Source of the DNA: Trypanosoma brucei
Taxonomy: Eukaryota
Reading direction: 5' to 3'
Assembly (NCBI GenBank): GCA_000002445.1
Contig: CM000208.1
Span: 3,296,001 to 3,360,000, forward strand
DNA: 64,000 bases
The translations under genes were made by a program, and so were the position numbers. Every line of letters starts with the position of its first letter. The stretch's first letter is position 1. Positions 2,676 to 64,000 of this stretch are shown here, one piece after another. The notes beneath the pieces are model-generated. The model did not search any database. It saw nothing but the letters and a program-made list of their open reading frames with translations, and had not been told where the DNA came from.

Positions 2676-2695
2676 CACACACACACACACACACA
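2676..2695. repeat. (CA)10 microsatellite
   Basis: Perfect dinucleotide run read directly in the sequence, in the spacer upstream of the 397-2439 gene. Confidence 0.9.
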
Positions 2696-10253: not shown

Positions 10254-11753
10254 TTTACAGGCCCAGGAATAAACAAGTGGGTCGCGCAGGCTCCCTCCTC
10301 CTTGTTGCACTGTGTGCTTCTCTCACTTGCTCCTTTAAAGGGGGAAAACTATCGTTCGCTGATACTGTGTTGCAGCCGCCACCGTGTTACAGACTTATCT
10401 GGTATTAGTGTGTGATCGTTAAATCTTTTCTTAGATGTGTTTTGAATAAACCTTATGGAGGTCACCTGCCTTCTGCTCCCCTTTTATTTTGTTAACCTGC
10501 TCCTAACACCACTTTGTCCGCCAACTTTCTGGCAAACCTTCTCTTAACAATTATCCTCGTCGATGGTAACCTGTTACTGCGAGGCACTTACACGGAGGGA
10601 TTGCTGTAACAGGCAGAGTACAAACCGCACGTGCAACGCAGTCGGAGCCACAACTGGTCTCAAGTGGTCTCTCCGAGTTCTCACTTCCTACGACGTAATA
10701 TTTTGGAAAGAAGCAATAACAAGAATGAAAGTAATATAAGGGGGAAAAGAAGTCATGTTCGCTTATCTCACTTCCTTCTACCACTCACACGCAGCTACTG
10801 TTGTTGATTCACGTTTATATGTTAGTTTATCCACCTCTAAACGGCAGAGAAGACCGAAAGCAATGCGCAAACTCTGCATCATACCCACACCCTCACCACA
10901 CTCACGTATTTTCCATATTGATGGATCTTTTGAGTGGAGGAGAATGCAGCAGCAAGGAGGGAAGAAGGACATAGTATACATATTAGCGGAACCGCACGTG
11001 ACCGGATTGTTTTCCGGCACGCACAACCATATTCCAGCAGTAAGCCAAGCTAAAGCGTACGTAACGGGGGTTCGAGGCCTCTGGGAAAGAAAAGTAAAAA
11101 AAAAAAGAAAGAGGAAACAAAAAAAGTGGACCGGAACGGAATAAAAAGAGAAGAGAAATGAAAACGGCCCCCCCCAGTAGAAAAATATGGACAACGATCA
11201 CGATATGTGTTGCTTTAAACTCCCGTACTTACCCTCTTCGAATGTTACGCACCAAATGTATCTTTTATTGGTTTACCCCACCTTATATTGTACCGCACAT
11301 AACGCGAAGGTCGCAACCCTGCCACCACCACCTCCCTCCATCCCCAACGACGTGACGAGTAATGTTTCAGAGCAATCCCTTCAATGAGTTGCTCTTTACA
11401 CCATTGTTGGCACTGTTACTACTTTTACCGGCACATACTCACATTACTATACGAGGTCGGGGGATAAAATAACACAAACCAGTCAACAGTGGGGGTGACG
11501 GTCCGCTCTCACCACCACTTCCTTGGTATGCACGATGACAGACAGGCAAAATGGTGTAAACAAATCGCTCGAGAATGGGGTGTGCGTTTGTAACGGTAAA
11601 AAGTGTATTGGAGGGGGCACCGGAGGGAAGGAAACAGGAGATAAGAAAAAAAGACGGCGTTGAAGCAAAAAGATGTGGGGAAAGACAAATTAAGCCCACT
11701 CGCAGGTACCCGATGAACCCCCCCCTTCCATGTCTATGGGCACATCTTATACA

Positions 11754-25134: not shown

Positions 25135-25175
<41 letters not shown>
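25135..25175. repeat. (CA)~20 microsatellite
   Basis: 41-bp perfect CA run whose last base is part of the stop codon (cta = TAG on the minus strand) of the nucleotide-sugar transporter gene, so the 3'UTR begins with (UG)20. Confidence 0.9.
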
Positions 25176-26254: not shown

Positions 26255-27075
26255 CACCGGTTTAAAGTTTGCAAGCAGCTTTCACACCTCGAATCCAATT
26301 TTGAAACACGCAACAGGTCTGAAATTCCCTTTCAACAGAAGGAAGAGCGACCGGTACAGTTTCCCCCCCCCCTCCCTTTTGGGTTTCTTGGCGGTGGGGA
26401 GCGACGACTACACCTCTTCCTTTTTGTATTCCTGTGAAACACCGTCCCTTGGTACTACTGTATGCTCGACCACAGCGAGGTAAAGCCACTGAATAAGGTG
26501 GGCGTAAAGATCAAAGACACCTAGTCGAATGCGTCCAACACATAAACACAAACACGAACACATACGCTCGTGGGTACACAAAAATAAAAACACACATGTA
26601 TTGGGTTTAAAGTTCACGCTTTCCCCTCTTCCGCACAGAGTTTGGCGGCCTAACACTGCATCTCAACTATTACGTGCATGCCCTACACGTCCTTCGTGTT
26701 CTTCATAAAACACTCCCTCCTTCCTACCCGTAACATTATAAAGAACGCAAATCCTCACCGTCCTCACAACGGCCAATAACGATCTGCGCAAAAAACAAAA
26801 AGAAAGATACCGTTTTCATTACTTTGAAAATGGCAACCACGACCTGCTGCACTCATCTAAAACATAGCCTTAACTACTTTACCTCTACCTCCGCTGACAA
26901 AAAAAAAAGCTCGGAGTCGCCGCGGTGTCGAAACGTGACACCCCTTGCGCCCCATGGCGCCACGTCGAACGATCTCCGCATCACCACACTAACGTCCTTT
27001 CGTCTCCCCACCATGCCGAACTGTACTAGACTATGCGACTAAAGTAATGATTCACCTTTCCCACTCATAATATCA

Positions 27076-27678
27076 TTACCACTGCTTCTTAATTTCGGGA
27101 GGCACCGGCTTCTTCTCCCAAGGTGTATACTCCCTTTCATATCCATTGCTATTGTCGCTAACAATCTTACGATGATCATTAACACGTTTGTGCAACCACT
27201 CTGAGAGTTCGACTACGTCTGTTGTTGCCTCCCAACCTGGGCGTTCCCGCACTGGCCGCTTGCCCTCGGCGTAGTCCCTCGTTTTCATTCGTGCTTCACA
27301 CCTTTTCTTCTCAGCTATATTCGCTGCCGCTATCCCGCTGACCGAAGTTGTTTGTTTTCGGGCGTGTTCAAGCGACGACTTTACGCCAGCAACAAACGAC
27401 GCTGCGGCCCGGGCGGTTGGACGCGGGACATCTAATTTGTGCGGGGGTGGAGAATCCATAGATATCACTTCCAATGTATGAATATGCGGTTGAAGCAGTT
27501 GCCATTTGGACCCGCTTTTCGTGCCGGTTTTGTGAACCGTGACATAACATTTTCCGGGGCCTGGTGGGGGCGGAGGACGGCGCTCCATCACCCACTGAGG
27601 TTCAAGATGGGCAGCAGCCTTCGAGGTGGGGAACAACTCGCCGCCACCACCACCCAGGCGGAGAAATGTCCTACGCAT
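27076..27678 (-). CDS. hypothetical protein (200 aa), possible mitochondrial presequence
   Basis: The track start at 27696 is GTG; ATG at 27676-27678 (MRRTFLRLGGGGG...). Pro-rich N-terminal part and a charged C-terminal part. No family recognised. Confidence 0.5.
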   Translation of the reverse strand: MRRTFLRLGGGGGELFPTSKAAAHLEPQWVMERRPPPPPGPGKCYVTVHKTGTKSGSKWQLLQPHIHTLEVISMDSPPPHKLDVPRPTARAAASFVAGVKSSLEHARKQTTSVSGIAAANIAEKKRCEARMKTRDYAEGKRPVRERPGWEATTDVVELSEWLHKRVNDHRKIVSDNSNGYEREYTPWEKKPVPPEIKKQW

Positions 27679-27984
27679 ATTGGATGAACTGTGCACACAA
27701 AAATGTAAAATAGTAGAATTTAAAGGTAGGGAAATTAAAAAAAAAAACTCGTTCGCGTGGGGGTATCAACAGTCAGCGCCGTGGAAAGACGTGGAGTTGT
27801 AAGTAAAAGAATTAACGGAAACCATAACGATGACAACGCGAGTGCAACAGTGAGCGAAGAAGTGATAACGTGCAGGGTGGCAGCTAAAACAATTTGGGGA
27901 ATGAAACTCAAATACGCAGCGACAGCTCCACACATACACAAACGTACCAACAGTAAAGGCAATGGAGTAGCCACACTGGGGACG

Positions 27985-30660: not shown

Positions 30661-31816
30661 TTTCGCACTTCTTGAAATGATTAATTACTCCCAAGAACTA
30701 CGACTTGTATCAAACACGGGGGAAAGCAAGATGTAGAGAGCACTAAAGGAAGACAACAAACTCGGAAAGAAAACACCAGGCCAGAAAATAGGCGGTCTTT
30801 CACTACCACCAAACAGCAAACATCACACAACCATACCGTCTGCAAATGCATTATTATGAAACTCAGTGCGCTGCGCCACATTGGCACGGTAACAAGAGGC
30901 ACACGGCACAAAAAAAGACCATACCACACAACTGCCACCCACAATAACATCTACAAGCCGACAACACGGGGCTCAGCTTTAACGATACTGACAAGTGCAC
31001 TCCGGTAAGTGTAGTGATATTTTTCAAGAAGCATAACATAAGCCTCACTTCTACACCACCGATAACGCGTGCAAATAAGCCTGGCGGTGAAACTCCAACG
31101 CAAGTACGAGCAAGCACAACAAACACCTGGTGGCACAATAAGGAATATCACAGGGAAGAAACTAGAAGAAAGGAGGATAGGCGGTGTGTACACAAGGCAC
31201 CGACATACTCGCCTCGCCTCTTGGAAAGCCACCACCCACAACGCACCACCAAAAAGGCATGCCGTGGCTACGGGCCTCCTCAGAAATAGAAGGTAACACT
31301 GAAGAAACAGCAATGGGGGAAATTACTGCAGGTACGTGTCAGTCAAATACAGCACTCTCGCTGAAAGCGTTGGTATCAATCAGCACTAAATTGTCACTCA
31401 GTCGCGCACTACAACTTCTGTCCTCATACACAGCCATGCAGCAGAACATCTCCGCCACATGTATCACCCCACAATGCATGCAAAGCACGGTGTGGGGCGG
31501 TTGTATGGGCGTCGATACAGCAACAGTGAATAAAGATGCAGTGTAAACACACATGGCAGGAAGGAGTTAGGGACGGTAAATGCCGGTACAATCAACACCG
31601 CTGCTCAACATTTGTACACATTCAAGAGTCCTCATTGGGTGTGTCGGTCCGCCTGTCGTTAGACAGTTTCTCATCGTCGCAGCGGTGTCGTGCCCATAAC
31701 ATGTCACATTTCGCATAGTCCAATGATCCAAGAGTCAAAAGAGAAGGGGAAAAAGAGTAACGAGGGGAAGAAGGGAGGAATCAGATAGATTGGTAAACGC
31801 AAAGTTGGTTTCTCGC

Positions 31817-51760: not shown

Positions 51761-52903
51761 CTAACACCTTTGCAAATTGGTCATCTTAATAGAAACATAC
51801 GGGTATTCGTATTGCAGGGACCCGTCTTCCACAGAAGAAGTGTTTGAAAAAGGAACACTCAAATCAGGGTACAGCTGTGATATTTTCTTTCTTATTTCTG
51901 CTTCCTTTCTCTTGTCAACCTGTAGGAATATCGATATGCATCGTGGAGGCAGCCCATATTTCAATAAACTTTCCACAAAAAGTCTCACCGCCTTTAGGTG
52001 AACCCAAGCAACATAGCAACCAGTGTACCTTTGACGAAGTACCAAGCCGAAATTTTTCTTCTCGCTTTCGGCTCTTTTAATAAAATCGTTTAGATCCCTT
52101 ATCGACGGTTCGTCGGCTGCATCCGAATCTCGTACAATATACCTCCTCTTCCGGCACGCCAGCTTCACATCCTCCAACACTCGACGAAAGACGACGATGC
52201 TGTTTAGCACAAACTCGCTATCCTCTGCAATGATACAGTTCGAATCGGGGCAAACGAAATCGTTGAGGGACCAATATTCATTTAGCCACTCTCTCTTCGA
52301 ACTTAAGGGCACTGCGACGAAGAGGTTAGTGAGCAATTCAGTATCAACAATGAAGGGATGGCTCCGGTTTTTCATAGTCACCAGTTCCCTAATAGGTTTG
52401 ACCGAGAGATTGCCCTGAGCTTTTCTTGTCACAGTAGTTAATTTGTTCCGCGTTTCATTATACTTCGTCATCACCAGACGAACACCTTCCTCGGTTGTTG
52501 CGAAATAATTTGCAAACTTTTCCACCAGGCCCAAAATACTTTCATTGCTGTCAAACTGTGCTGAACTCCACTGAAACCCTTTGACGAATGCTGCTGGGGT
52601 CATCTCCTGTGTTTGGTTGAATCGTAAGGTCGCAACGACATCACGTGGCTCTTCACATATCTCTTGCATTATCGTAATCTGCTTTTCCAAGCTGTTCTCC
52701 ACCTGTAAATCCAGTTTTGCCAGCTCGTCACTTGCTTCAATGAGAGAGTCAAGTGTTCCTACCTTAAAGTTCGGGACAGCGAATGAACAAACGTCCTTTC
52801 CCGCAGCCCCAAGGAGGGATACGAGGTTTTTGTATTGAAACGCGAAGGAGTCCGCTCCTGTCGGAAGGAAAGGAAGCCCCAAAAGGAGAAAGTGCTCCGA
52901 CAT
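51761..52903 (-). CDS. V-type H+-ATPase subunit C
   Basis: [29 protein letters not shown] and [25 protein letters not shown] align with V1 subunit C (human ATP6V1C1 [23 protein letters not shown] ... [23 protein letters not shown]), compared from memory. The track start at 52918 is GTG; ATG at 52901-52903. Confidence 0.85.
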   Translation of the reverse strand: [380 protein letters not shown]

Positions 52904-53249
52904 TTTACACTGCTCCACCCCTATGCTTACCTAGAAATAAAGAACCGTAGTGTGTTTTCCAAACAGGAGTAGAAGGCGGCGAGCACTGACACACGAAAAA
53001 CAGGTAGCAATAATGCCGTAAAACGCCGACCAGTCCATAAGACTGTCGATTTCGAAATCCATGAGCAAAACTATCTTCAGACACAGTAAATGACACTGAC
53101 AGGAAGCCATCCGAAAGTAAAAAAAGTGAATGAGACTAAGATAAATAGAGTGCTAAACCCCCACGCGGTAGTTTAAAGAAAAAATAGGGGCTAGCGTGCG
53201 ATGCCAAAAGCTACAAACAAGCTGACAGACAAAAAAATGGAAACGAACA

Positions 53250-56200
53250 GGATGCGGACATACCCGTATTACACGAGGGGTCGCAGCACAACGATAAGCG
53301 GTGCACCCCAATTGGCCCATCATCCATTCCCTTTCTCTGCCTCCCACCCCCACTTCCTAACAGCAGGTTGTCCCACCCTAAGGCAACAGCACCCGCCCCG
53401 CGCACCCTCGCCAACCAGACCCGCATGGTACGCGTGCGAAAAGGCCCCACCGTAGAGGGAGCAAATCCATGCCTCCAGAGCACCATCAGCACGGCCGCCG
53501 ATTTCACGCACCCGAGAAGCGTTCGGGCTGCGCAGCTGCAAGTCCAACGGCGCAGGTCCCAGATGCTCCGCTCTCTCCTCCCCTTTCTAGAACCCCACAG
53601 CATTGACAGGGGCTCGCGGCTTCCACTGCGAGCGGGGGCATTCGGCACGGCACCGTTACCTACATGGGGGAGTTCTCTCCAATTGAAAAGGGTAATGGCG
53701 GGGGAGGGGGCCCTCTCCACTCAAAATAGGAATTAGGGTACCTCCCCGGCTGCCGCAGCATTATGTGGCGGGTCGCCCTCCAACTCGCGGTGGTGGCAAG
53801 AGCCTCTTCACAGTAGCAACGTGGCTTCTCTTCGCAAATGCCACCGCGGGCGCGCCCACGCCGGAAAGTCTAATGCATTGAAGGGCTTCCGGCTGCACAG
53901 AGACCCTTCCTGCACAAAAAGTACGTGGATTGTGGTTGCGACGTTCCGAAGGCGAAACCTCACGACGGCGACCCAGCGACGCTTCATGCTTACACAGAGT
54001 GAACGGGCACCTGCTTGCAGAGCTCAAATGGGTCACCGGAATTTTTTACACTTCTTGCAGCCCAGTGGGTGCTCGTTGCTCTTTAGTTTGTTACCTCCTT
54101 TTCCAAATTTCTTTCTCACGATTTGCGACGCCTTCCCCTTGCCCCGACTGCGTCCACCATTTCCGGCACCCATTTATTGCCCCTTGCCCATCCGGGCCCT
54201 CACCAAACACCACACCACCGTACTCTTCGTTTCTCCCCGGTTCTGACAGCGCAGGGCTTTGCTGCCGGCGCCTATTCAGCGAAGTTGCCTCTAGACTGGG
54301 AATGCGCCCTGGGCGCTTTTCTCTTCGGCACCCCGCAAGCGAGCATCCGCGGCATCCCCTTCTTCACGCTGAATTGGAACAATTCCACCCCGCTGGTTAA
54401 AAACCCGCACCCATCCTACCTGAATTACTTACCCATTGGCTGGTATTTGCGCCCCTCGAGCGTCTTTAATTTGAGGGCACCTCCTCATTCGTTACATGAA
54501 CAGCTCCCGCTACCAATAGGGTCTGCGCTCGCCGTTCCCGCTACTCTTTCGAGACCAAATTCGGCCTCACACACATATCGCCCGCAGCAGTTGCGGTGGT
54601 TCCCCTGCTTCCTACATGCCCAAGCGCCGCTTTTCTTCCCGACACGCTCCGTTCTGAAACATGTTTGAGCCCGCCGCGGCTGTTGGGTTCTACCAACCGC
54701 ATCCTATTCGATGCCCTGTACCCCTTCCATTTTCCTCCTGTTGCGATTCGGCAAAGTTCGAGGGAGGGAACGCATCATATTCCGTGCTTGGCGCAAGGCG
54801 TGGGTCAGCAAGCCATCAATCGAAAATTTGATGTGCGGCTCCAGCCCATCCTCAGCCCCCGGTCTGGTGGATGACGTTTTTCGTGTCGGAGGAGAGGCCC
54901 CTCAGGCTACACTCACCGGAGGGTGCATTTTTACGAAAATTGTATTTGGAACCGCCTCGTCCCCATGCTATGGTTAAGTTGGTGGTGAGCTTTCAGCCGT
55001 GAAACTGAATGCTCCACGGCGTCGTTGCACCGTAGCGGAGCCTCTGGCTTTTGTGCAGGGGTAGGCATCCCGTACCGGACGGGAGAAGCTGGCCATTACT
55101 AAATCTCCATCGGGTGCGGGGAAAAGCGGAACGGCAAACGTACTACGTTTGTCGTGTGGGTGGGGTGAGGAAACTGTACTCCAGTTTCGGACAGAAGGAA
55201 TTTGCAAGCATGAAGTGACGCTCCCCAACGGTAGATGGGCTTAGTTGATGGAAACGTGTCCCTTCCGCACTGGACTCCATACGCCCTCGCCCTCGCTAGC
55301 CGGCGCACGAAAGTCCATTCCATTGACAACTTGGTATGTGGAAAACCGCACTTCGGGGGAGGGGCGCAGTGGGAGGTACCCCTTCCGCTGCCCAATGGCG
55401 CCGAAGATGGGGAGGGACTTTCTGTTTGAGTTCCCCACCTACAGGAAGCAGTTGCGGCGGATGGCCAACAAGGGCCGCTTTCAAGTGCAGGAAGAAAAAT
55501 AATTCCCCCCGTCACACTCCGGAGGTGATGGCATTGGTGACCGACCTTGTTCCACTCGGTGGTGGACGCTCTGCCGCCCTCGAGAAGAAAATATTAGAGT
55601 GCGTGCATGCGATTCGCTTTCGGTAAGCACAAGCGGCAACGGAACTGGATCACAAGGTCGAATAAGTTTGGTACCCCCGAAGGCGGTTGCAACCTCAGAG
55701 TAGTTCCTTTTCGCTTCACTTTCTCCTTTTCCGTCGTTTGAGGGAAGGCGAACTTCCGCGACGGTTGGCGAGCAGAGTGGGGTCTACACTCATTCCCATA
55801 GTGCTTCCCCGACGCGCTGACAACGATCTACGGTGACACGGTGCTGCGCTTGCCAACAAACTAGGGTAAAGGAACTGTGCTTGAAAAATGATTGGCAACT
55901 AAAGGCTATTTTCCTAGAGGCCTCTTGCCGGAACTTGCGGGTGCGAAGTGGTGTGCAGTTGGCGGGATGAGCCCCCGGAAAAGGCGCACACTTCCAAGCA
56001 TGTCGTCCTTTTAGGCGCCGGCCTTGCGACCACACCCTCAAACGTTGCTCCGCGTTGTGCTTGTGCGCGTTTCGGTGACCTTGGTGGTCGTGATCTAAAC
56101 AAAAGTGTACAATAAGAGTAAATTCTGGCGTATGTTGAGTGTGCCGCTTCCAGCGCCTTTTTCATGCACTCTGGTGACGTTTTCCACCGCATCGGGAGTG

Positions 56201-57640
56201 GGATGCGCAATGAAGGTGGCAACGGTGGAAAGCGCTGCGAAGAGGATTGGGGTAGAGGAAGTGCCAGAGGGATACGACGAAGGAATAAGAAAATGAGGCT
56301 CTGCTTAGTTCAAGAAACGGACCCGACATGGGATGAAAAGTGTACAAGTGGTGGCGGGATAAAGGAACACGGGAACGCCGAAGATGACGGGCTGCACAGG
56401 GAAGGGAGGAGCAGATGGTGGGGAAACCGCATGAACTTACCACCCTTCAATTTTCACAGCCACGTGGCGGGCTCCGGTGGGGTTGGGAGGGGCAAGGGGG
56501 ATGGGGAATAAATATCGCAGAATTACCGCACCCCTCGTCCTGGATGAATCCGGTTCCTTGGCCACGTTGGAACGTTGAACCGAATAGACCGTGTAAACTG
56601 CGCGCCATCAGGCGGCTCGAGGCTACAGCACTTTCAAACACAGCGAAAGTGGCGATCCCGAAGCAGACAAGGGATTTGTTCTGCAAGGAATAAAAGGAAT
56701 TCCACACCTCGTTACACAAAGTGGCGTCTCCACCTTCCACACCCGGGGAAAGTAACTTTGGGGCGCCGGAGCATCACTGCTTTTGCGCTGCCTCAGTTCC
56801 ACCCGCTTTCTCACAACGTCTCCGTGGTAAACATATTTCGTAACCCGCTATCCCTGCTGATGCTCACAGCTGCATCGGCCTCCAAAGGATGGAGGTTGGA
56901 ATGGGCTGTTGTAAACTCTCCTCCGCCTGTAGGGTCCCAAATTCGGAAAGATTGAAGTCTCAGTGGTCTGACCCAACGTAATATCTGCATATGCCCCCCT
57001 TCGGTGATTTAGCGGCACATTGGGTAGGAGAGACTGATTGGACGACTACAAGCTCCAGCCAACGAATTCGATTGGATTTGGTGGCCGTAAGGGCTCTAAT
57101 TGCCTGGAACAATTGCTTTAGAGAGCTTTTTGGGAAAATGCCTCCCTAACCCCAACGACATCAAACTACGCACGGGGAGGGGGAAACTATTTACGGCGAA
57201 AGCGGGCTCGAGAGTCACTGGCTTTGCGAATAGCAGTTCACACCTGCCCTGCGGATGTGCATGATTTGGTGGGAAAGGTGGAAAGTTGGAAATGCTGCCA
57301 CTATGCGGTTCGAGGGTCAGGAGGATCCGCTGTCATATGATCAAGTGATGTGTCTGAGAAGGAGGGAGAAGGGGAAGGGGATGCCAGAAAGGCCGATTCG
57401 CCGCGGCCCACGCGCTGCAACATGAGAACTCTTTGCTCAAACAGCGTGGGACCCGCAGTGAGAAAGTATGGTGGGAGGGTGGGCTTTGGTTTTTCCAACT
57501 TCCTGCGAAGAGATCGACCGTTACAACTTTGTGTCAATCCATCTGGTGCCGACCTACTCTTATTAACATTTCCGCCGTTTCGGTTTGTCCTCACTACTTC
57601 TGATGAGAGAACAACCGCAAAGGGCATTGACTACGCTCCA
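53250..57640. other. GC-rich (~60-67% GC) non-coding island with a strand-skew switch; function unknown
   Basis: No ORF above 181 aa on either strand. The longest ORFs are Pro/Gly/Arg-rich composition artefacts. 53.25-54.95 kb is strongly C-skewed on the + strand (for example C=30 vs G=8 in 54181-54240). 54.95-56.55 kb is G-skewed on the + strand (G=30 vs C=9 in 56461-56520). It is flanked by normal AT/purine-rich spacer. Confidence 0.6.
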
Positions 57641-58000
57641 AATGAAAGATAATTAAAAAAGAGAGCACAGGGAGAATGAAATGCAGCGACGGGCACTGTG
57701 CGGAACAACCGCCACTGCCGCATTCGTACCAATATATGCGTAATTTGAGCAATGCTACTCCAGTGGAAGGATGAAGGGAGGGGAGAAGGTTTGTTCCCCA
57801 CCACCTCCACCGGTCCGTTACTCAAACACAACGTCCCGAGGACAGCTATGTTTGAAAGTAAGAAAATGTCGATAAATGGGGTTAGATGGATCTTAACAAC
57901 ACATAAAGAAATAAATTACGGGGGAATAGGAACTGGAGCATTAGTCCCAGCCAAATACCCCCATATCGTCACCCATTTCCTTCATCCCCCGCAGTACTTC

Positions 58001-59149
58001 TCATACCCGAGGTGGAATGAGTGACTCGGAGGGGCCGAGATACTTCACCCCACACCCGACAGGGGACTGCAGTAACATCTCAAACGGCTTCTTCGGGTGG
58101 TCAATCAGCTTCTTATATTCGTCGGGAAGCGATACAACCTTGACTTTCTCAAGTAACTCGCGGTCTCCGAAGAAAAACTTCTCGAATGGTGTTGGGAAGT
58201 GCTCCATGAGCATAGCCACGGCTTCAGGAAGGTCCTCCTTAAGAACAAACAAGAAACAGTTCGCCCCGGCATCGAAGGTGTAAGCCAGTGCTGTGCGGCC
58301 CTTCTTCGCATTGTAGGCTTTCACGAGGCGGATCATCGCGTAGCTGTCCTCCGTCGCATACGTAATCTTCGGTTCGGTGGTCGCGCATATCTCCTGCAGG
58401 TCGTCCGATTCAAGCATTGCAATCTCTGCAAAGGTTGCGAAATCCCTCGCCTTTATAGCTCTCGAGGCAATTTTCATGCGCTCCGGTACAGTTTCTGAGA
58501 TGCGCTTCTTCATCAAAGGCGACGTTTTGAGGGACTGCTGCATGCCCTTGGTGCTGGAGACATCCTTCTGTGCCCCTTTAAGGACAGCGCACATCACCTG
58601 TATCTCGGGCCAATGCGTTTCGTCAACAAATTGTGTGGCCACACAGTCGCTACCATCAGGTTTCTCCCCCTTGTTCCATATAACGAAACCCCCAAAGGCA
58701 CTGCGGCAGGCGCTGCCAGATCCAAGGCGAGCAAGCATTGAGACGTTAGTGGTGGACTTGAAAGCACGGATGAGCGCCGCCGACATGGCGCAGTAGCCGC
58801 TAGCGGAAGAGGCCATCCCAGCGGCAGTTGGGAAGTTGTTCTCCGATACGATGTTCACCTTTTTGTTTTTCAGGTCTTCGGGGCATGTGCTCCTGAGATG
58901 AAGGAGCATCGACTGGACCCGTGGAGTCTTTCCCACATCAACCTCGGTGCCGTTCAGTCGCAACGTGTCTGTCTCGATGTCGTCCCTGAGTTCCACGGAG
59001 GTTTTGCTACGAAACGGGCTTGCGGAGAGCGTGATGCTAAAAGAGTCATTTGTGGGGAGTATCAGCGTCTCTCCACCCTCACGCTTACCCCAGTACTTGA
59101 TAAAAGCGATGTTGATGGGTGCCTCGACGGTGGCACACTGGTCGGACAT
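58001..59149 (-). CDS. MVD: diphosphomevalonate (mevalonate-5-pyrophosphate) decarboxylase, 382 aa
   Basis: GHMP-kinase fold with the MVD signature APINIAFIKYWGKREGG and the NDSFSITL region. The track start at 59257 is TTG; ATG at 59147-59149 (MSDQCATVEAP...). Confidence 0.9.
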   Translation of the reverse strand: MSDQCATVEAPINIAFIKYWGKREGGETLILPTNDSFSITLSASPFRSKTSVELRDDIETDTLRLNGTEVDVGKTPRVQSMLLHLRSTCPEDLKNKKVNIVSENNFPTAAGMASSASGYCAMSAALIRAFKSTTNVSMLARLGSGSACRSAFGGFVIWNKGEKPDGSDCVATQFVDETHWPEIQVMCAVLKGAQKDVSSTKGMQQSLKTSPLMKKRISETVPERMKIASRAIKARDFATFAEIAMLESDDLQEICATTEPKITYATEDSYAMIRLVKAYNAKKGRTALAYTFDAGANCFLFVLKEDLPEAVAMLMEHFPTPFEKFFFGDRELLEKVKVVSLPDEYKKLIDHPKKPFEMLLQSPVGCGVKYLGPSESLIPPRV

Positions 59150-59351
59150 GGCGCCGCTTTGCCACGCAGCAATTAATCCTTCCCTCGCTTTACCTACGCT
59201 GAGGTCAGTAAGAAAGGGGAAGTAAGTACTGAGGAGAAAAAGTGATTGAGAAAACAATTTAAAAGCTACAAGCTCCGTTCACATTACGATTTCCCCCCTC
59301 TTTTTGCGGATAGGAAACGCCACGCCTGGGTCGAATCTGCGACCCGCAATG

Positions 59352-60377
59352 CTAGGCCACACTCCGGCAGGAACGCAAGATGGTGGCCACCCTGTTATGT
59401 GCGGCGAAGGAGGCTTGTGGTACACTTGGCGGGGTCAGCGGAGCCACCGAGGCCTCAGCCTCCCAACCAAATCCTACAAGAGCCGCTAACGCATCTTCGG
59501 CATCGGCGTGCTTCTCCGTGCTTTTTGACACCATGCGCCGACCTGTCAGCAGGGCCAACGCAAAGTCGGCATCGTCAGGATGGAACAACTCCACGACTGT
59601 AGCGAATGAGCCACCGTTGGAAGCAAAACTGAAAGCGTAATCCGCAACGGGACCAACGTGTCTGGTGAGTTTCGATAGCAGCCCCGCGGGGTCGCAAGTG
59701 GACAGCGGCACCGGCACCGCGTTTCGTATCCGTGCGCTCGCTAGTGGGGTATTGCCCTGCACAAAGCCTTCACTAGATGGGCCGCTAACGTCGGTGGCTG
59801 CCGTTGTTTCACCACGAAGCAGTGCCGTCAACTCTCCATCCGTCTCACGAATGCCTTCCGTCGTCCTCTCCAACGATTCTTGCGCGCGGCAGTACGACTC
59901 CTGGAGCTCCAACAGTCTTTGCAGCAACTCCCCGCCCTCAGCCGCCTGCTCGCTAGTTTCCAACATTTCCGGAATGGCACGTACAAGCAGCTCATCCATT
60001 TGCAAGTCGCGGGGCATCAGGTGGTTCTTTGGGAGATTTGGATTCATTTCCAACTTAGTTTTCTCCTCTTGTACGCCCCCCGCGGCGCCCTCTAGAGTAG
60101 CCACTGCAGCCGTTTGTTTCTTGAACACGTTGGAGTGTATTTCGATGGCATGATTCTTCAGCCGTTCGCCATCAAGGTGGTCTACCGCCAGCCGCGCCGC
60201 TGAACTCTGGTGGAAACGAACCCAGTAAAATGACCGTTGCCGGGAAGCATCGTATCGCATTTTCAACTCATCAATGTCCCCAATAATACGCAACCATTCG
60301 TGCACATCTTCAGCGAGTACCGCCGAGAGGTCATCAACAAAGACGTGCACAACCCTTGCGTCACCTCGATCGGCCAT
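59352..60377 (-). CDS. hypothetical protein with two RRM-like modules (putative RNA-binding protein), 341 aa
   Basis: The track start at 60491 is TTG; ATG at 60375-60377 (MADRGDARVVHVFVDDL...). N-terminal VVHVFVDDLSAVLAEDVHEWLRIIGDIDEL...SFYWVRFHQSSAARLAVDHLDGERL and C-terminal ADYAFSFASNGGSFATVVELFHPDDADFALALL both resemble a beta-alpha-beta-beta RRM topology. Confidence 0.55.
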   Translation of the reverse strand: MADRGDARVVHVFVDDLSAVLAEDVHEWLRIIGDIDELKMRYDASRQRSFYWVRFHQSSAARLAVDHLDGERLKNHAIEIHSNVFKKQTAAVATLEGAAGGVQEEKTKLEMNPNLPKNHLMPRDLQMDELLVRAIPEMLETSEQAAEGGELLQRLLELQESYCRAQESLERTTEGIRETDGELTALLRGETTAATDVSGPSSEGFVQGNTPLASARIRNAVPVPLSTCDPAGLLSKLTRHVGPVADYAFSFASNGGSFATVVELFHPDDADFALALLTGRRMVSKSTEKHADAEDALAALVGFGWEAEASVAPLTPPSVPQASFAAHNRVATILRSCRSVA

Positions 60378-60786
60378 TGCTTTCAGGAACAGGGAAGGAG
60401 AGGGATTGTCGCGCACACGGGCAGGGAGAGGGGCAACAGTTGGTTCACAGAAAGACGTACAGAACAACGGAGGCCCGCAGTACGTGCTCAAACTGGCATA
60501 GGGACCATACGTTTAAGAACACCAAATTGAAATAAAGGAAACAAAAAATAAAATAAAATAAAGGTGATCGTTATGTACCCGATAAAATGATGTGCTTTAT
60601 ACTATTGCGGAGGATTGGGGGAATGATAAACTTGCCGCTGAGCTACTAAATTTCATGCGTTTTGTGCCAGTTACTCTTACGACAAACGATGGCGATTTCG
60701 CCGCAGATGCAGTTAAGAAACGATAGTCCTATTTATTTATTGTTAGAAGTGAAAGTATCTCGAAGTATCCCTTCTAGAGAGGAAAG

Positions 60787-62370
60787 CTACAAAGTGTCTT
60801 TGCTTCTTTCCGCGGGTGTTTGGTCTCCCACCAACCTTCTATCTTCGCTTGCGACTCGGGAGTGAGGTGTACTCGCCTCACGTGACAGTATGTAGTAGAC
60901 GGCAAGCCAGCACGGAATTGCAAGACCAAGGAATGCGAATATCACAAGAAGAGCATTACGTAGCTGATACTTGCTGACGCAGTGTCCATCCGTGCTATTA
61001 CCCGTTTTGTTTATCCACTTGCATAAATTGTCAATGTCGTTTCCGCACTGGGTGTTATTACCATGCGCCGGACATCCTCTCGAGAAGGCATTGTCAGAGA
61101 GATAACCAGCAAGTGTTGGTGACGGGAAATCGCCTAGCAAGTGAATAAGAAGAACGGAGTAACTCACGGCATATGCCCTTTGATCCCATGGGACCACTGT
61201 TAGTATTGCTGAGTTAATGGGTGCTGTGACTGCAAAGAGAGTAAACACCGAAACCACCAGAAGCGATGTAAACAGCCAAGTAACTTCCATGAACAATGCA
61301 GCAAGTCCTGCGGGGACGCTGACGGCAATCATGACGACGCAAAAAAGCTGACACTTCATAGTGCCTGAAGAGCCAAGGCTCCCTCCAAGTTTGTCCACTA
61401 CAACGCCTCCGACGATGGATCCAATGATACCGGTAAGTGCTGTGGTACCGCCCATGATCATTGATGCCGTCATGTTGGTAAGCTCCATCGGCCCATCAAC
61501 TAGAAAAGGTATTGACCATACCGAGAGGCCGCCGATTACGAAGCAGTACATTGCGTAACCGAAGACAACAAGGAGATACCGTGCGTTCGTGAAAATGTGA
61601 AAAGTGGCCTTATGTATCGGGAGGTATTCGTTGTCGCGTTTCTGGCGCATGTTGTATCGTTTGGGGAGGAATACGATAAGTAGCAAAATCGGAATGGCGG
61701 CGATCGCAAGGGAGAGAAAGGTTACACGCCAGCCCTCCAGACCCCCTACGGAACCATACGCACCCATCACACCACCGGCAGCCATACCAACCGCTGTCCC
61801 GACGGGGATCATAGAGTAGAACGTGCCTATCCACGATGTCCGTGACTCGGGTGGTGCAATGGCATCAATCACCGTCACTGTGAAACCAACAAAGGCGGCC
61901 TCTCCCACCCCATCAAAGATTCTGCAGGCGAGAAGGAACTCATACGAGCGTGCCAGGCCGGTTCCAACTAAAGCAGCAGCCCATGCAATGATGCCTACGG
62001 CGATGATCCACTTGGATTGTACGACACCTCCGAGCCCAGCGAACAGGGGACAGGCGACCATGAAGCCAATCATGAAGCCTGAGAAAAGCAAGCCGGCCTT
62101 CGTATCCGTCAGAACATTCGATGACCCCGCGATGGTCGGATCACCCTTAATGACGACTAAACAACCGGCAATGGCTCCGCGGTCGTAATACGTGACGAAG
62201 TTGAGAAGCGTGAAGATGGAAAGAACAATGCGAGGTGTCATGAGCCGCCCCCACCGTGATACAGGTTCCTCGGCAGTAGGATCAACCTCCTCAGGTGTAG
62301 TTTGCACTTCTTCATGTTCGTTCGTTTCGTGGGGATCGTTCCTTTGCGTTTTATCTTCGGAAGCCATCAT
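60787..62370 (-). CDS. major facilitator superfamily (MFS) transporter, 12 TM
   Basis: ATG confirmed. 12 hydrophobic helices. MFS motif-A-like RIFDGVGEAAFVGF, GAIAGCLVVIK and FMIGFMVACPLFAGLGG. Confidence 0.85.
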   Translation of the reverse strand: MMASEDKTQRNDPHETNEHEEVQTTPEEVDPTAEEPVSRWGRLMTPRIVLSIFTLLNFVTYYDRGAIAGCLVVIKGDPTIAGSSNVLTDTKAGLLFSGFMIGFMVACPLFAGLGGVVQSKWIIAVGIIAWAAALVGTGLARSYEFLLACRIFDGVGEAAFVGFTVTVIDAIAPPESRTSWIGTFYSMIPVGTAVGMAAGGVMGAYGSVGGLEGWRVTFLSLAIAAIPILLLIVFLPKRYNMRQKRDNEYLPIHKATFHIFTNARYLLVVFGYAMYCFVIGGLSVWSIPFLVDGPMELTNMTASMIMGGTTALTGIIGSIVGGVVVDKLGGSLGSSGTMKCQLFCVVMIAVSVPAGLAALFMEVTWLFTSLLVVSVFTLFAVTAPINSAILTVVPWDQRAYAVSYSVLLIHLLGDFPSPTLAGYLSDNAFSRGCPAHGNNTQCGNDIDNLCKWINKTGNSTDGHCVSKYQLRNALLVIFAFLGLAIPCWLAVYYILSREASTPHSRVASEDRRLVGDQTPAERSKDTL

Positions 62371-62644
62371 TCACTACTGTAGTCGAAAAAAGAGGCGGGG
62401 TATGGGAAGCTTTGTCCGCTGCTTAGCGGTAAGCGTAGCAATGGATTGAAACAAATGAGAGGGCGAGGTGGGTGTTGTGTGAAAGGCGTGGCGCTTTGTT
62501 TTCACTTTCTGTTAATAAGCGGTTTGCACAAATGAATCTAAGTGTATTGTTGATCAACAACTAAAGGAAATAAATAAGTCACGAACGAATAACATCAAGG
62601 GAAGCTCCCATGAACTTGAAAGAATTATCTGTCAGTTGGGCAGG

Positions 62645-63064
62645 TCAGCAGCCTGTGATCCCTCTCAGCGCATGTAGGGCAGAGACAACACGGTGTGTTG
62701 GAGGGAGAATGTCAACCAGAGCCCAGGCAGCACGCGCCCACTCACCCTGCTTTTCTGTATTGTTGATGTGAAGATAGAAAACGGAATTGTTCCACGCCTC
62801 GACCGTAAAATATTCCAAAAGGAGTAGGGCGAAAGCGGAGGAGTTATTGGCGGTTACGCCCCTTTCCCCAACCGCACCGTAGCGCCCAAGAAAGGTGCCG
62901 ACGGTAATACCCATCACGGGAAGAGAAAGGAAACTCATGAGGTGCTGCACTACGCACATTTGCTCTTTTCTGTCGGATCCCAAAGTGAAGGCTCTGTACA
63001 GGCAAGAGAGGTTCTTTGTAAGGGTTTCAGCAACCGCTTCCTCTTCACCCGCTTGCGTGAGCAT
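62645..63064 (-). CDS. small hypothetical protein (139 aa); may be the remnant of a disrupted longer gene
   Basis: ATG confirmed at 63062-63064. The same reading frame as ORF 63260-63670 is open upstream, interrupted by a TGA at 63110-63112. A third frame (62950-63240) overlaps. Confidence 0.3.
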   Translation of the reverse strand: MLTQAGEEEAVAETLTKNLSCLYRAFTLGSDRKEQMCVVQHLMSFLSLPVMGITVGTFLGRYGAVGERGVTANNSSAFALLLLEYFTVEAWNNSVFYLHINNTEKQGEWARAAWALVDILPPTHRVVSALHALRGITGC

Positions 63065-64000
63065 TGAGAGGAGATAATTACGTTACCCTTAATGAAGAAG
63101 TTCCTTGCATCATTGTCTTCCGTAGTGTGCAAGTGTGGCAGAGCCATATGTATGATCATTTCCGTGTCGCTGAAGTTTGCACCTTCTGCTTGACAAGTCG
63201 TGAAGCAGCATGGCAGACCCAAATGTTGGGAGCGCCGCACTGCTGACGTTGGCGGCGGGTTAGGAACGTAACGAATACTGCCAACGTTGCGTATTTGTAG
63301 CTAACGTCCCTGAATCCGACATATAGACCTGCTGGTGGCGTTGCAGCGTAATAATACCGTTATTATGATCACTGCAGCGGCACAATGAAGCCATGTGAGC
63401 TGCGGCAAATAATTGGTGGCGAAGCAAGTTAACTAACGGCTCTATGTGTGAGTGGTCGTGCTCACGGCAAAATCTGAACCCCCCTTGAACACAGAAGGGG
63501 AAGTCGTTTCTGATAAATGACAAGACCGAGGGGGAGGGCGAAGCCGCAAAGGAGTCCCGCTCACCGTTGTTGTGGGTTGCAAACGATGATATATTGCACG
63601 AATGCTCCAAGAGCGGAATGGCGTCACAAAAACCTACCTCTGATCGCAGATGCCCATTCCCTCCAACCAAGAAAAAAAAAGAGCAGAAGAGACGATTTCA
63701 CCGACATGCAAAAAGAAAACAACATCACGTTAACATCATCTTTCCCTCACAAACCAGCTTGCTCACCCATTCCCGCTGCATAAAACTAGAGTATTTCCTA
63801 CCTTTGTTTCACAAGCACACCCAAGTTTGTTCTTCTAGCTCACACCACTGGTCAGTGCTCCCTCGCCATATGATACGCGAGAAGTTTGCATACTACACAC
63901 GTGGGTATAATTTCCTCTCCGCCTTCTTGCCCAGCAAAGTACACAACCGACAAAGAAAATGAGGGAAAACTATAAGGCAAACACGAGAAGTTAAGTGCTT

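What the first reader, a model, noticed from the sequence alone, without database searches (positions are those of the whole stretch)
54900..55100. Strand-skew inversion point inside the GC island
Counting bases per 60-nt line shows strong C excess on the + strand to the left of ~54.95 kb (for example 53341-53400: C=33, G~10). To the right there is G excess or parity (55141-55200: G=21, C=8). This is an abrupt inversion over <200 bp. Such inversions mark divergent transcription or replication switch points in many genomes. It is unexpected inside a region where all annotated genes are co-directional.
Basis: seen in the sequence. Interest (0 to 1): 0.55.

Follow-up and report, generated by a model that had tools for sequence, protein, structure and literature searches.

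The report
Trypanosome transcription-unit boundary, head-to-tail
The base-composition flip is real, but it marks an ordinary, already mapped spot on Trypanosoma brucei chromosome 10 where one long multi-gene transcription unit stops and the next one starts on the same strand.

Summary
The window is T. brucei TREU927 chromosome 10. All genes lie on the minus strand. A 5.1-kb gene-free, GC-rich island (52.9-58.0 kb) separates the MVD gene from the V-ATPase subunit C gene.

The skew flip exists. Cumulative G-C reaches its 64-kb minimum at 54,738, about 150-350 bp left of the flagged interval. It is the largest step in the window at the 2-kb scale and unexceptional at 1 kb or less. It does not continue into the genes beyond 58 kb.

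In four other trypanosomatids V-ATPase C is the first gene of a unit, at a divergent strand switch. In T. vivax and T. theileri MVD is the last gene of a unit, at a convergent switch. T. brucei joined these two ends head-to-tail, by an inferred inversion plus a mapped 7.7-kb duplication (window 55,369-63,052).

Published tables place a BDF3-defined head-to-tail site 226 bp from Tb927.10.14060. That gene is probably the 74-aa ORF at 55,099-55,323. It rises 12.5-fold without base J and H3.V, and about 14-fold after PNUTS knock-down.

The flip therefore separates a termination zone from a start region whose sense strand is G-rich. This is a known kind of feature. I found no support for a replication switch or a retroposon junction.

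The parts
51761..52903 (-). V-ATPase subunit C gene (EAN78775, Tb927.10.14040). It is the first gene of the downstream transcription unit.
   Evidence: It is 100% identical to the TREU927 protein. It is the first gene at a divergent strand switch in T. cruzi, T. theileri, L. infantum and T. grayi. The gene ID comes from PMC5790291.
52904..55368 (-). Single-copy half of the island (2.46 kb). It is the proposed start region of the V-ATPase C unit and contains the skew flip.
   Evidence: It has no match in the paralogous copy or anywhere else in the window. It is 99.5% conserved in T. b. gambiense.
53211..53603 (-). Annotated 130-aa ORF (EAN78776, 'T. brucei spp.-specific protein'), probably Tb927.10.14050.
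   Evidence: An exact-sequence look-up found it. Its accession lies between those of V-ATPase C and the 74-aa ORF.
53250..54750 (-). Zone where the sense (minus) strand is G-rich. There are two tracts, 53,250-53,600 and 54,000-54,750, each with plus-strand skew about -0.27. The 54-55 kb bin has 13 runs of four or more C and no runs of four or more G on the plus strand, the highest C-run density in the window.
54738..54972 (.). Skew switch point: the cumulative G-C minimum (54,738) and the positions of the largest step (54,750-54,972, depending on flank length).
55099..55323 (-). Annotated 74-aa ORF (EAN78777, old name Tb10.61.2800), probably Tb927.10.14060. It is silent normally and de-repressed when the termination machinery is removed. 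It lies in uniquely mappable sequence.
   Evidence: Exact look-up and accession order. Expression 0.42 to 5.26 in cells lacking base J and H3.V, and 226 bp to a 3' head-to-tail site. log2 fold change 3.84 after PNUTS RNAi.
55369..63052 (-). 7.68-kb segmental duplication. It holds the last 138 codons of a 943-aa gene, an MFS transporter gene, an RRM-protein gene, MVD, and 2.63 kb of spacer downstream of MVD. The other copy lies upstream of the CFAP74-like gene.
   Evidence: 97.8-99.7% identity, with the same two end points in T. b. equiperdum and T. equiperdum. T. b. gambiense reproduces the left end point and shows the same break between its own two copies. Both TREU927 MVD proteins are on record, EAN78728 and EAN78778.
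55369..58000 (-). Duplicated half of the island: the spacer downstream of MVD and proposed termination zone. Its sense strand is C-rich, with plus-strand G-rich patches at 56,100-56,560 and 57,000-57,450. A G-quadruplex-type motif lies at 56,469-56,506 (plus strand).
56164..56511 (+). 115-aa ORF, annotated twice in T. b. gambiense as 'hypothetical protein, unlikely'. It served as the handle for fetching both copies.
58001..59149 (-). Diphosphomevalonate decarboxylase gene, second copy (EAN78778). It is the last conserved gene of the upstream unit.
   Evidence: MVD is the last gene before a convergent strand switch in T. vivax and T. theileri.
62657..63070 (-). Truncated relic (residues 819-955) of the 943/958-aa gene. 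It marks the far end of the duplicated block.
   Evidence: tblastn. The full-length gene sits upstream of copy 1.

Best explanation
The flip lies inside a head-to-tail boundary between two RNA polymerase II polycistronic transcription units of T. brucei chromosome 10.

Transcription runs right to left in window coordinates. Polymerase that has transcribed the MFS, RRM-protein and MVD genes terminates in the right part of the island, roughly 58.0 down to 55.1 kb. This termination depends on base J, histone H3.V and the PNUTS/PP1 complex. A new unit then starts in the left, single-copy part, roughly 55.1 down to 53.0 kb, and V-ATPase subunit C is its first gene.

The sign change at about 54.75 kb is where the composition typical of the transcribed sense strand (G over C) begins. 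To its right the sense strand is C-rich.

Shown here: the flip itself; the synteny break; the duplication boundaries; and the published behaviour and head-to-tail distance of Tb927.10.14060.

Inferred: that the 74-aa ORF is Tb927.10.14060; that initiation takes place in the G-rich tract; and the order of the evolutionary events. Those events are one inversion that turned an ancestral divergent and an ancestral convergent strand switch into two head-to-tail junctions, followed by insertion of a 7.7-kb copy of the MVD block in front of V-ATPase C.
For: 1. Identity and layout. The window is TREU927 chromosome 10. All ORFs of 200 aa or more are on the minus strand, and a 5.1-kb gap lies between V-ATPase C and MVD.

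2. V-ATPase C opens a unit at a divergent strand switch, opposite a CFAP74-like gene, in T. cruzi, T. theileri, L. infantum and T. grayi. MVD closes a unit at a convergent switch in T. vivax and T. theileri. The island therefore joins an ancestral unit end to an ancestral unit start.

3. Published function. Schulz et al. 2016, S6 Table (PMC4721952), lists Tb927.10.14060 at 0.42 in wild type and 5.26 in cells lacking J and H3.V, and 226 bp from a 3' head-to-tail site. Those sites were defined as BDF3-bound regions that are not divergent switches. Kieft et al. 2020, S4 Table (PMC7055916), lists the same gene with log2 fold change 3.84 and q = 1.4e-6 after PNUTS RNAi.

4. GenBank accessions run EAN78775 (V-ATPase C, Tb927.10.14040), 78776 (130-aa ORF), 78777 (74-aa ORF at 55,099-55,323) and 78778 (MVD). 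This order puts Tb927.10.14060 at 55.1-55.3 kb, next to the flagged interval and in single-copy sequence.

5. Sense-strand G runs are concentrated at 53.25-54.75 kb. Wedel et al. 2017 (PMC5579346) report G- and T-run 10-mers enriched on the coding strand of start regions, orientation-dependent promoter activity, and a known G-over-C coding-strand skew.

6. The paralogous junction (MVD copy 1 to CFAP74) has an unrelated promoter-proximal sequence. It shows the same polarity switch about 1.1 kb upstream of the CFAP74 start codon.

7. In T. cruzi and T. theileri the cumulative-skew minimum of the 21-kb locus falls in the strand switch just upstream of V-ATPase C.
Against: No chromatin or nascent-RNA track could be read here, so the positions of termination and initiation inside the island are inferred.

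The assignment of Tb927.10.14060 to the 74-aa ORF rests on accession order and numbering in steps of ten. I could not look it up directly.

The GT-rich signature of the published synthetic promoters is not evident. Eight-mers made only of G and T on the sense strand number 11-13 per 500 bp, against a window mean of 7.3 and sd of 7.4. The 54,000-54,750 tract is G+A-rich on the sense strand rather than G+T-rich.

The G-rich tract upstream of CFAP74 in the sister junction is much weaker.

At flank lengths of 1 kb or less the step is not statistically exceptional.

Why the termination zone carries the opposite skew is not explained.
Confidence: 0.75

Rival explanations
1. Historical accident of juxtaposition. 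On this view the flip is only the seam between DNA pieces of different origin, brought together by the inversion and the 7.7-kb duplication, and has no present role.
For: The island is composite. There is a sharp duplication boundary at 55,369 in three genomes and a synteny break relative to all other trypanosomatids examined. The ancestral inversion breakpoint could lie anywhere in the single-copy 2.46 kb.
Against: The flip (54,738-54,972) lies about 400-630 bp from the only mapped seam, inside single-copy sequence. The stretch 54,750-55,368 already has positive skew. The sister junction shows the same polarity switch in unrelated sequence. This view is also compatible with the boundary being functional.
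Confidence: 0.3
2. Fossil or cryptic bidirectional promoter. On this view the island keeps the V-shaped skew of a divergent strand switch. The plus-strand G-rich side would still fire antisense, rightward transcripts that base J, H3.V and SPARC normally suppress.
For: V-ATPase C sat at a divergent switch ancestrally, and in T. cruzi and T. theileri the skew minimum lies there. Start regions give about 4:1 sense to antisense primary transcripts. Antisense reads at head-to-tail sites rise most in cells lacking J and H3.V. Of 54 unidirectional promoters, 14 become bidirectional without SET27.
Against: Most of the plus-strand G-rich DNA (55,369-57,450) is duplicated spacer from downstream of MVD. 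It is not the old CFAP74-side half of the divergent switch, which stayed with CFAP74. No locus-specific antisense data were available. The only plus-strand ORF is annotated 'hypothetical, unlikely'.
Confidence: 0.2
3. Replication origin or fork-direction switch. On this view the skew flip reflects leading-strand and lagging-strand mutational bias.
For: ORC1 binding sites coincide with transcription start sites in T. brucei (abstract of PMC6344857), so ORC1/CDC6 binding at this boundary is plausible.
Against: The inverted sign lasts only about 2.7 kb. The genes beyond 58 kb have skews of -0.00 to -0.06, and cumulative skew is flat from 58 to 64 kb. Gene-level skew follows the coding strand throughout the window, as already reported for trypanosomatids.
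Confidence: 0.08
4. Degenerate retroposon (an ingi, RIME or DIRE relic), with the flip arising from the element's own internal composition.
For: Synteny breaks in trypanosomatids are often associated with retroelements (my own background knowledge). The island is specific to T. brucei and richer in GC than its surroundings.
Against: Six-frame translations of 53,000-57,990 give no Pfam match better than E = 0.24 (the only one, DUF5661, scores 12.2 bits against a 27-bit cut-off) and no reverse-transcriptase or endonuclease match. There are no tandem repeats and only short direct or inverted repeats of chance size. Nothing similar occurs elsewhere in the window or in the other fetched loci.
Confidence: 0.04

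Closest known systems
Head-to-tail (non-divergent, single) transcription start regions with an adjoining termination region in T. brucei. About 54-57 are described (Siegel 2009; Wedel 2017, PMC5579346; Schulz 2016, PMC4721952; Staneva 2022, PMC9566855).
   Same: It lies between co-directional gene arrays. It contains a few kb of gene-poor spacer with only short 'hypothetical' ORFs. A BDF3-defined site lies next to Tb927.10.14060. A silent ORF just upstream of the start region is de-repressed when base J, H3.V or PNUTS is lost. The sense strand of the start side is G-rich.
   Different: Nothing fundamental differs. Local details are that half of the spacer is a 99% identical segmental duplicate, so short reads multi-map there, and that the published GT-rich 10-mer signature is weak.
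Divergent strand-switch regions (bidirectional start regions) of trypanosomatids.
   Same: The cumulative GC skew has a V-shaped minimum just upstream of V-ATPase C, as at the orthologous divergent switches of T. cruzi and T. theileri. V-ATPase C is the first gene of its unit.
   Different: In T. brucei the neighbour on the other side is the end of a co-directional unit, not a diverging unit. The orthologous divergent switches are 0.55-1.9 kb long, and the T. cruzi and T. theileri ones are AT-rich. This island is 5.1 kb and GC-rich.
Coding-strand compositional skew in kinetoplastids (McDonagh 2000 and Siegel 2009, as cited in PMC5579346).
   Same: There is G-over-C excess on the transcribed sense strand, so the sign of the skew tracks transcription direction and changes at unit boundaries.
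   Different: Here the sign changes without any change of coding strand. The inverted stretch is noncoding and only about 2.7 kb long.

Membership tests
Head-to-tail polycistronic-unit boundary (termination region plus single start region) of T. brucei | A gene-poor spacer between two gene arrays on the same strand. | tested here: met
   All long ORFs are on the minus strand. A 5.1-kb gap at 52,904-58,000 holds only short ORFs.
Head-to-tail polycistronic-unit boundary (termination region plus single start region) of T. brucei | The downstream gene begins a unit and the upstream gene ends one, judged by independent evidence. | tested here: met
   V-ATPase C is the first gene at a divergent switch in four species. 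MVD is the last gene at a convergent switch in two species, and second-to-last before the chromosome end in L. major.
Head-to-tail polycistronic-unit boundary (termination region plus single start region) of T. brucei | Start-region chromatin (BDF3, H2A.Z, H2B.V, H4K10ac) over the downstream part. | tested here: met
   This is indirect. A published table puts a BDF3-defined head-to-tail site 226 bp from the start of Tb927.10.14060. The gene-to-ORF assignment is inferred from accession order. The raw tracks could not be read with these tools.
Head-to-tail polycistronic-unit boundary (termination region plus single start region) of T. brucei | Termination dependent on base J, H3.V and the PJW/PP1 complex upstream of the start region. 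| tested here: met
   Tb927.10.14060 rises 12.5-fold in cells lacking J and H3.V and by log2 3.84 after PNUTS RNAi. This carries the same caveat about the gene assignment.
Head-to-tail polycistronic-unit boundary (termination region plus single start region) of T. brucei | Strand-asymmetric G- and T-run elements on the coding strand of the start region. | tested here: inconclusive
   The G-run asymmetry is strong: in 54-55 kb there are 13 runs of four or more C against none of G on the plus strand. Sense-strand GT-only 8-mers are within one sd of the window mean.
Divergent strand-switch region | Two transcription units leaving the region on opposite strands. | tested here: not met
   Conserved genes on both sides are on the minus strand. 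The condition is met only in other species.
Replication-associated skew switch | Inverted skew persisting through flanking genes over tens of kb. | tested here: not met
   Genes at 58.0-62.4 kb have skews of -0.00, -0.06 and -0.01, and cumulative skew is flat after 58 kb. Only 6 kb lie to the right of the island, so the test is limited.
Replication-associated skew switch | Origin activity (an MFA-seq peak, ORC1/CDC6 binding). | not testable with these tools
   No replication data are accessible. ORC1 is reported at start sites in general.
Retroposon relic or junction (ingi, RIME, DIRE) | Remnants of reverse transcriptase or endonuclease coding sequence, or multiple copies. | tested here: not met
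   The six-frame Pfam scan found no reverse-transcriptase or endonuclease domain; the only hit was a chance-level DUF5661 match (E = 0.24). No similar sequence occurs elsewhere in the window or the fetched loci. DNA consensus sequences of the elements were not available.
Segmental-duplication junction as the cause of the flip | The skew change coincides with the duplication boundary. | tested here: not met
   The boundary is at 55,369. The flip is at 54,738-54,972.

The most novel reading that the evidence does not exclude
The island may be an intrinsically bidirectional, dispersed promoter. Its composition would still carry the V-shaped skew of the ancestral divergent strand switch. Its antisense (plus-strand, G-rich) arm would be kept silent only by the termination chromatin of the incoming unit. 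If so, a skew flip could be used to pinpoint the centres of trypanosome RNA polymerase II promoters from sequence alone, even where no strand switch exists.
Probability: 0.15. Interest if true: 0.45.

Novelty: already known. Interest (0 to 1): 0.22.

Why it matters
The result removes an apparent anomaly. A skew flip among co-directional genes in a trypanosome is what a head-to-tail transcription-unit boundary looks like, and this boundary is already in published BDF3-based lists.

Three small additions may be useful. First, there is a concrete history for how this boundary arose: an ancestral divergent and an ancestral convergent strand switch were converted to two head-to-tail junctions by one inversion, followed by a 7.7-kb duplication. 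Second, 55,369-63,052 is 98-99.7% identical to a second copy about 100-150 kb away, so short-read ChIP-seq or RNA-seq signal over the termination half of the island is ambiguous. Only 52,904-55,368 is uniquely mappable. Third, two independent junctions show the same skew polarity switch 1-2 kb upstream of the first gene. That could be tested genome-wide as a sequence-only marker of start-region edges.

Tried and rejected
- tRNA scan of the whole window: none found.
- Rfam: at gathering threshold only the TB10Cs4H3/H4 snoRNAs at 31.2-31.5 kb. At E up to 1 over 52.7-58.2 kb, nothing. No structural RNA gene explains the island.
- Tandem repeats and direct or inverted repeats in the island: only short, chance-sized matches.
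- Six-frame Pfam scans for retroelement or pseudogene relics: no retroelement or pseudogene domain; the only hit was a chance-level DUF5661 match (E = 0.24).
- tblastn of all neighbouring genes from other species (CFAP74, ECH, SSNA1, SRP19, PK, PPR and others) against the island: no hit better than E = 0.06, so no pseudogene relics.
- DNA comparison of the island with the intergenic regions of T. cruzi, T. theileri, T. vivax, T. grayi and Leishmania: only the MVD coding edge aligns.
- Exact look-ups of the TREU927 V-ATPase C protein failed because that assembly is not indexed.
- The apparent tandem repeat of the whole island in T. b. equiperdum, ending at window 53,001, abuts a run of about 100 N. 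I discounted it as an assembly gap.
- Sense-strand GT-only 8-mers as a promoter signature: not enriched.
- Papers not held: Cordon-Obras 2022 and Siegel 2009.
- No mention of the locus genes in the supplements of the SPARC paper or of Kim 2021, nor of neighbouring IDs in full-text search.
- The bacterial promoter/terminator scanner and the phage, plasmid and E. coli collections were not used, because they are irrelevant to a trypanosome.
Full report
**What the window is**

The window carries two H/ACA snoRNAs named after T. brucei chromosome 10, TB10Cs4H3 and TB10Cs4H4, at 31.2-31.5 kb. The ORF at 51,761-52,903 (minus strand) is 100% identical to the V-ATPase subunit C of T. brucei brucei TREU927, which lies on a 4,054,025-bp record. 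All ORFs of 200 aa or more are on the minus strand. A 5.1-kb stretch, 52,904-58,000, has only short ORFs. It lies between V-ATPase C and a diphosphomevalonate decarboxylase (MVD) gene at 58,001-59,149. GC content there is 0.53-0.64, against about 0.49 for the window.

**The observation**

Cumulative G-C falls from base 1 to a global minimum at 54,738 and is then roughly flat.

Segment skews on the plus strand are as follows:
- 53,250-53,600: -0.275
- 53,600-54,000: +0.02
- 54,000-54,750: -0.274
- 54,750-55,100: +0.09
- 55,100-56,100: +0.06
- 56,100-56,560: +0.27
- 56,560-57,000: -0.09
- 57,000-57,450: +0.21
- beyond 58,000: about 0

The largest upward step lies at 54,750-54,760 with 0.5, 0.75 and 2-kb flanks, and at 54,972 with 1-kb flanks. 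With 2-kb flanks it is the largest step in the window, and only 3 of 200 block shuffles reach it. With 750-bp flanks it ranks second, and 33 of 200 shuffles reach it.

The flip is therefore real. It sits slightly left of the flagged interval. It is notable for the length of the positive stretch rather than for its sharpness. The three genes to the right have skews of -0.00 to -0.06, so the inverted sign does not extend beyond the island.

**What is not there**

- There are no tRNA genes and no Rfam match, even at E up to 1.
- There are no tandem repeats and no meaningful direct or inverted repeats.
- No Pfam domain of a retroelement or any other recognisable gene appears in any of the six reading frames; the only match up to E = 1 is a 12-bit, chance-level DUF5661 hit.
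- There are no relics of the genes that flank the orthologous regions in other species.
- Nothing similar occurs elsewhere in the window.

**Synteny**

I fetched the loci around the V-ATPase C orthologues. In T. cruzi, T. theileri, L. infantum and T. grayi this gene is the first gene of a unit at a divergent strand switch. Its neighbour on the opposite strand is a CFAP74-like gene of about 1,050 aa, only 0.55-1.9 kb away. That gene is absent from the window.

Around the MVD orthologues the picture is the opposite. In T. vivax and T. theileri MVD is the last gene of a unit at a convergent switch, facing SSNA1, SRP19 and pyruvate kinase. In L. major it is the second-to-last gene before the end of chromosome 18.

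The genes upstream of MVD (the MFS transporter and RRM-protein genes) are conserved in the window. The island therefore joins an ancestral unit end to an ancestral unit start.

**The duplication**

Exact-sequence look-ups showed that TREU927 has two MVD proteins, EAN78728 and EAN78778. They also showed that a 115-aa ORF of the island (56,164-56,511, plus strand) is annotated twice in T. b. gambiense.

Fetching both gambiense places, and the first MVD copy in T. b. equiperdum and T. equiperdum, gave the following:
- Window 55,369-63,052 is 97.8-99.7% identical to a second copy, with the same end points in T. b. equiperdum and T. equiperdum. T. b. gambiense shares the 55,369 boundary and shows the same break between its own two copies.
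- In the equiperdum genomes the other copy sits in the order zinc-finger gene, 158-aa gene, full-length 943-aa gene, MFS, RRM, MVD, 5.5-kb spacer, CFAP74-like gene, all on one strand.
- In T. b. equiperdum the window's copy is preceded by pyruvate kinase, SRP19, SSNA1 and a truncated 3' piece of the 943-aa gene.

**The simplest history (inferred)**

1. The ancestral layout was CFAP74 pointing left, a divergent switch, then V-ATPase C through the 943-aa gene, MFS, RRM and MVD pointing right, a convergent switch, then SSNA1, SRP19 and PK pointing left.
2. One inversion of the V-ATPase-C-to-MVD unit made everything co-directional. It created the junctions SSNA1 to V-ATPase C and MVD to CFAP74.
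3. A 7.68-kb copy was then inserted between SSNA1 and V-ATPase C. It holds the last 138 codons of the 943-aa gene, MFS, RRM, MVD and 2.63 kb of downstream spacer.

The right half of the island (55,369-58,000) is thus duplicated spacer from downstream of MVD. The left half (52,904-55,368) is single-copy. The skew flip lies in the single-copy half, about 620 bp from the seam.

**Published functional data**

GenBank accessions run EAN78775 (V-ATPase C), 78776 (130-aa ORF at 53,211-53,603), 78777 (74-aa ORF at 55,099-55,323, old name Tb10.61.2800) and 78778 (MVD). V-ATPase 'subunit c' is Tb927.10.14040. Numbering in steps of ten makes the 74-aa ORF Tb927.10.14060. This is an inference.

Schulz et al. 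2016 list Tb927.10.14060 among genes changed more than fourfold. Sense expression is 0.42 in wild type and 5.26 in cells lacking base J and H3.V. The gene start is 226 bp from a 3' head-to-tail site. Those sites were defined as BDF3-bound regions that are not divergent strand switches.

Other genes in that table that lie close to head-to-tail sites likewise have small distances to the 3' site. I read this as meaning that they sit just upstream of the next start region.

Kieft et al. 2020 list the same gene as up by log2 3.84 (q = 1.4e-6) after PNUTS RNAi.

Two independent studies therefore show that this ORF is kept silent by regulated polymerase II termination. Because the ORF lies in single-copy DNA, its reads are not confounded by the duplication.

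**Mechanism**

Polymerase II coming from MVD terminates in the right part of the island, and a new unit starts in the left part.

The sense (minus) strand is G-rich over 53.25-54.75 kb. The 54-55 kb bin has 13 runs of four or more C on the plus strand and no such runs of G, the highest C-run density in the window. Wedel et al. 2017 found G- and T-run 10-mers enriched on the coding strand of start regions, mostly at their 5' ends. They also found orientation-dependent promoter activity, and they cite an established G-over-C coding-strand skew.

The flip is then the point where sense-strand composition begins. Two observations support this:
- The sister junction, MVD copy 1 to CFAP74, has an unrelated promoter-proximal sequence. 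Its sense-strand skew also turns from negative to positive, about 1.1 kb upstream of the first gene.
- In T. cruzi and T. theileri the locus-wide cumulative-skew minimum falls in the strand switch just upstream of V-ATPase C.

Weak points:
- GT-only k-mers are not enriched.
- The 54,000-54,750 tract is G+A-rich on the sense strand.
- The sister junction's tract is weaker.
- I could not inspect any chromatin or nascent-RNA track.
- The opposite skew of the termination zone remains unexplained. It could be an antisense promoter arm, an inherited property of the old convergent switch, or nothing.

**Rivals**

- A pure juxtaposition seam is not excluded for the ancient inversion breakpoint, but the only mapped seam is 620 bp away.
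- A replication switch is not supported, because the sign does not persist. ORC1 binding at the boundary is nevertheless plausible, since ORC1 sites coincide with start sites.
- A retroposon relic has no support.
- Chance cannot be excluded at the sub-kb scale.

**Verdict**

This is a known kind of feature, a head-to-tail transcription-unit boundary, and the site itself is already on record in the literature. The locus history and the multi-mapping caveat are modest additions.

Noticed in passing
window 55,369-63,052: This is a 7.68-kb segmental duplication holding the MFS transporter gene, the RRM-protein gene, MVD, the 3' fragment of a 943-aa gene and 2.63 kb of spacer. It is 97.8-99.7% identical to a second copy upstream of the CFAP74-like gene about 100-150 kb away. 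Divergence between the paralogues is about the same as between T. brucei subspecies, which suggests a recent duplication or ongoing gene conversion. Short reads will multi-map here.
   Followed up: yes
L008 16,830 versus L009 16,887 (T. b. gambiense FN554973.1), compared with window 63,052 and with L013/L014: In the DAL972 assembly the far flanks of the two repeat copies are swapped relative to TREU927, T. b. equiperdum and T. equiperdum. There the V-ATPase C copy continues into the longer 943-aa gene homology, and the CFAP74 copy continues into SSNA1 and SRP19. The gambiense genome paper reports a 110-kb 'segmental inversion' on chromosome 10 at 3250-3350 kb (PMC2854126). That may be the segment between these repeats. 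It could be a misassembly or a real rearrangement.
   Followed up: partly
L011 about 10,605-10,705 (T. b. equiperdum CM010681.1): A second copy of the whole island (window 53,001-60,548) lies about 15.6 kb upstream of the V-ATPase C copy, but it ends at a run of about 100 N. This may be a scaffolding artefact or a real 15.6-kb tandem repeat of PK, SRP19, SSNA1, MFS, RRM, MVD and the island.
   Followed up: partly
window 62,657-63,070 (-): An unannotated relic of the last 138 codons of a conserved 943/958-aa gene, 47% identical to the T. theileri protein. The full gene sits upstream of the other repeat copy.
   Followed up: yes
window 56,469-56,506 (+): One of only two plus-strand G-quadruplex-type motifs in the 64 kb (GGGCTCCGGTGGGGTTGGGAGGGGCAAGGGGGATGGGG). 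It lies in the duplicated termination-side spacer. A 2026 G4 ChIP-seq paper reports G4 enrichment at start and termination sites (PMC13316426).
   Followed up: no
window 27,340-27,400 and about 4,810: Skew steps as large as, or larger than, the flagged one at the 0.5-1 kb scale. The step near 4.8 kb lies in the ORF-free stretch between 2,466 and 5,238. The step near 27.4 kb lies inside the 206-aa ORF at 27,076-27,696, just right of a C-rich (plus-strand) ORF-free stretch at 26,258-27,075. Neither extends over 2 kb.
   Followed up: partly
window 31,219-31,281 and 31,448-31,513 (-): Two H/ACA snoRNA genes, TB10Cs4H4 and TB10Cs4H3 (88 and 86 bits), in the gap between the ORFs at 30.7 and 32.8 kb.
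   Followed up: no
window 2,676-2,695 and 25,135-25,175: Perfect (CA)n microsatellites of 10 and 20.5 repeats.
   Followed up: no
window 53,211-53,603 (-) and 55,099-55,323 (-): The two annotated ORFs inside the island (130 and 74 aa) are identical or nearly identical across T. b. brucei, T. b. gambiense and T. equiperdum. They are labelled 'T. brucei spp.-specific'. There is no evidence that they encode proteins, and hypothetical ORFs inside start regions are a known annotation pattern (PMC9566855).
   Followed up: partly
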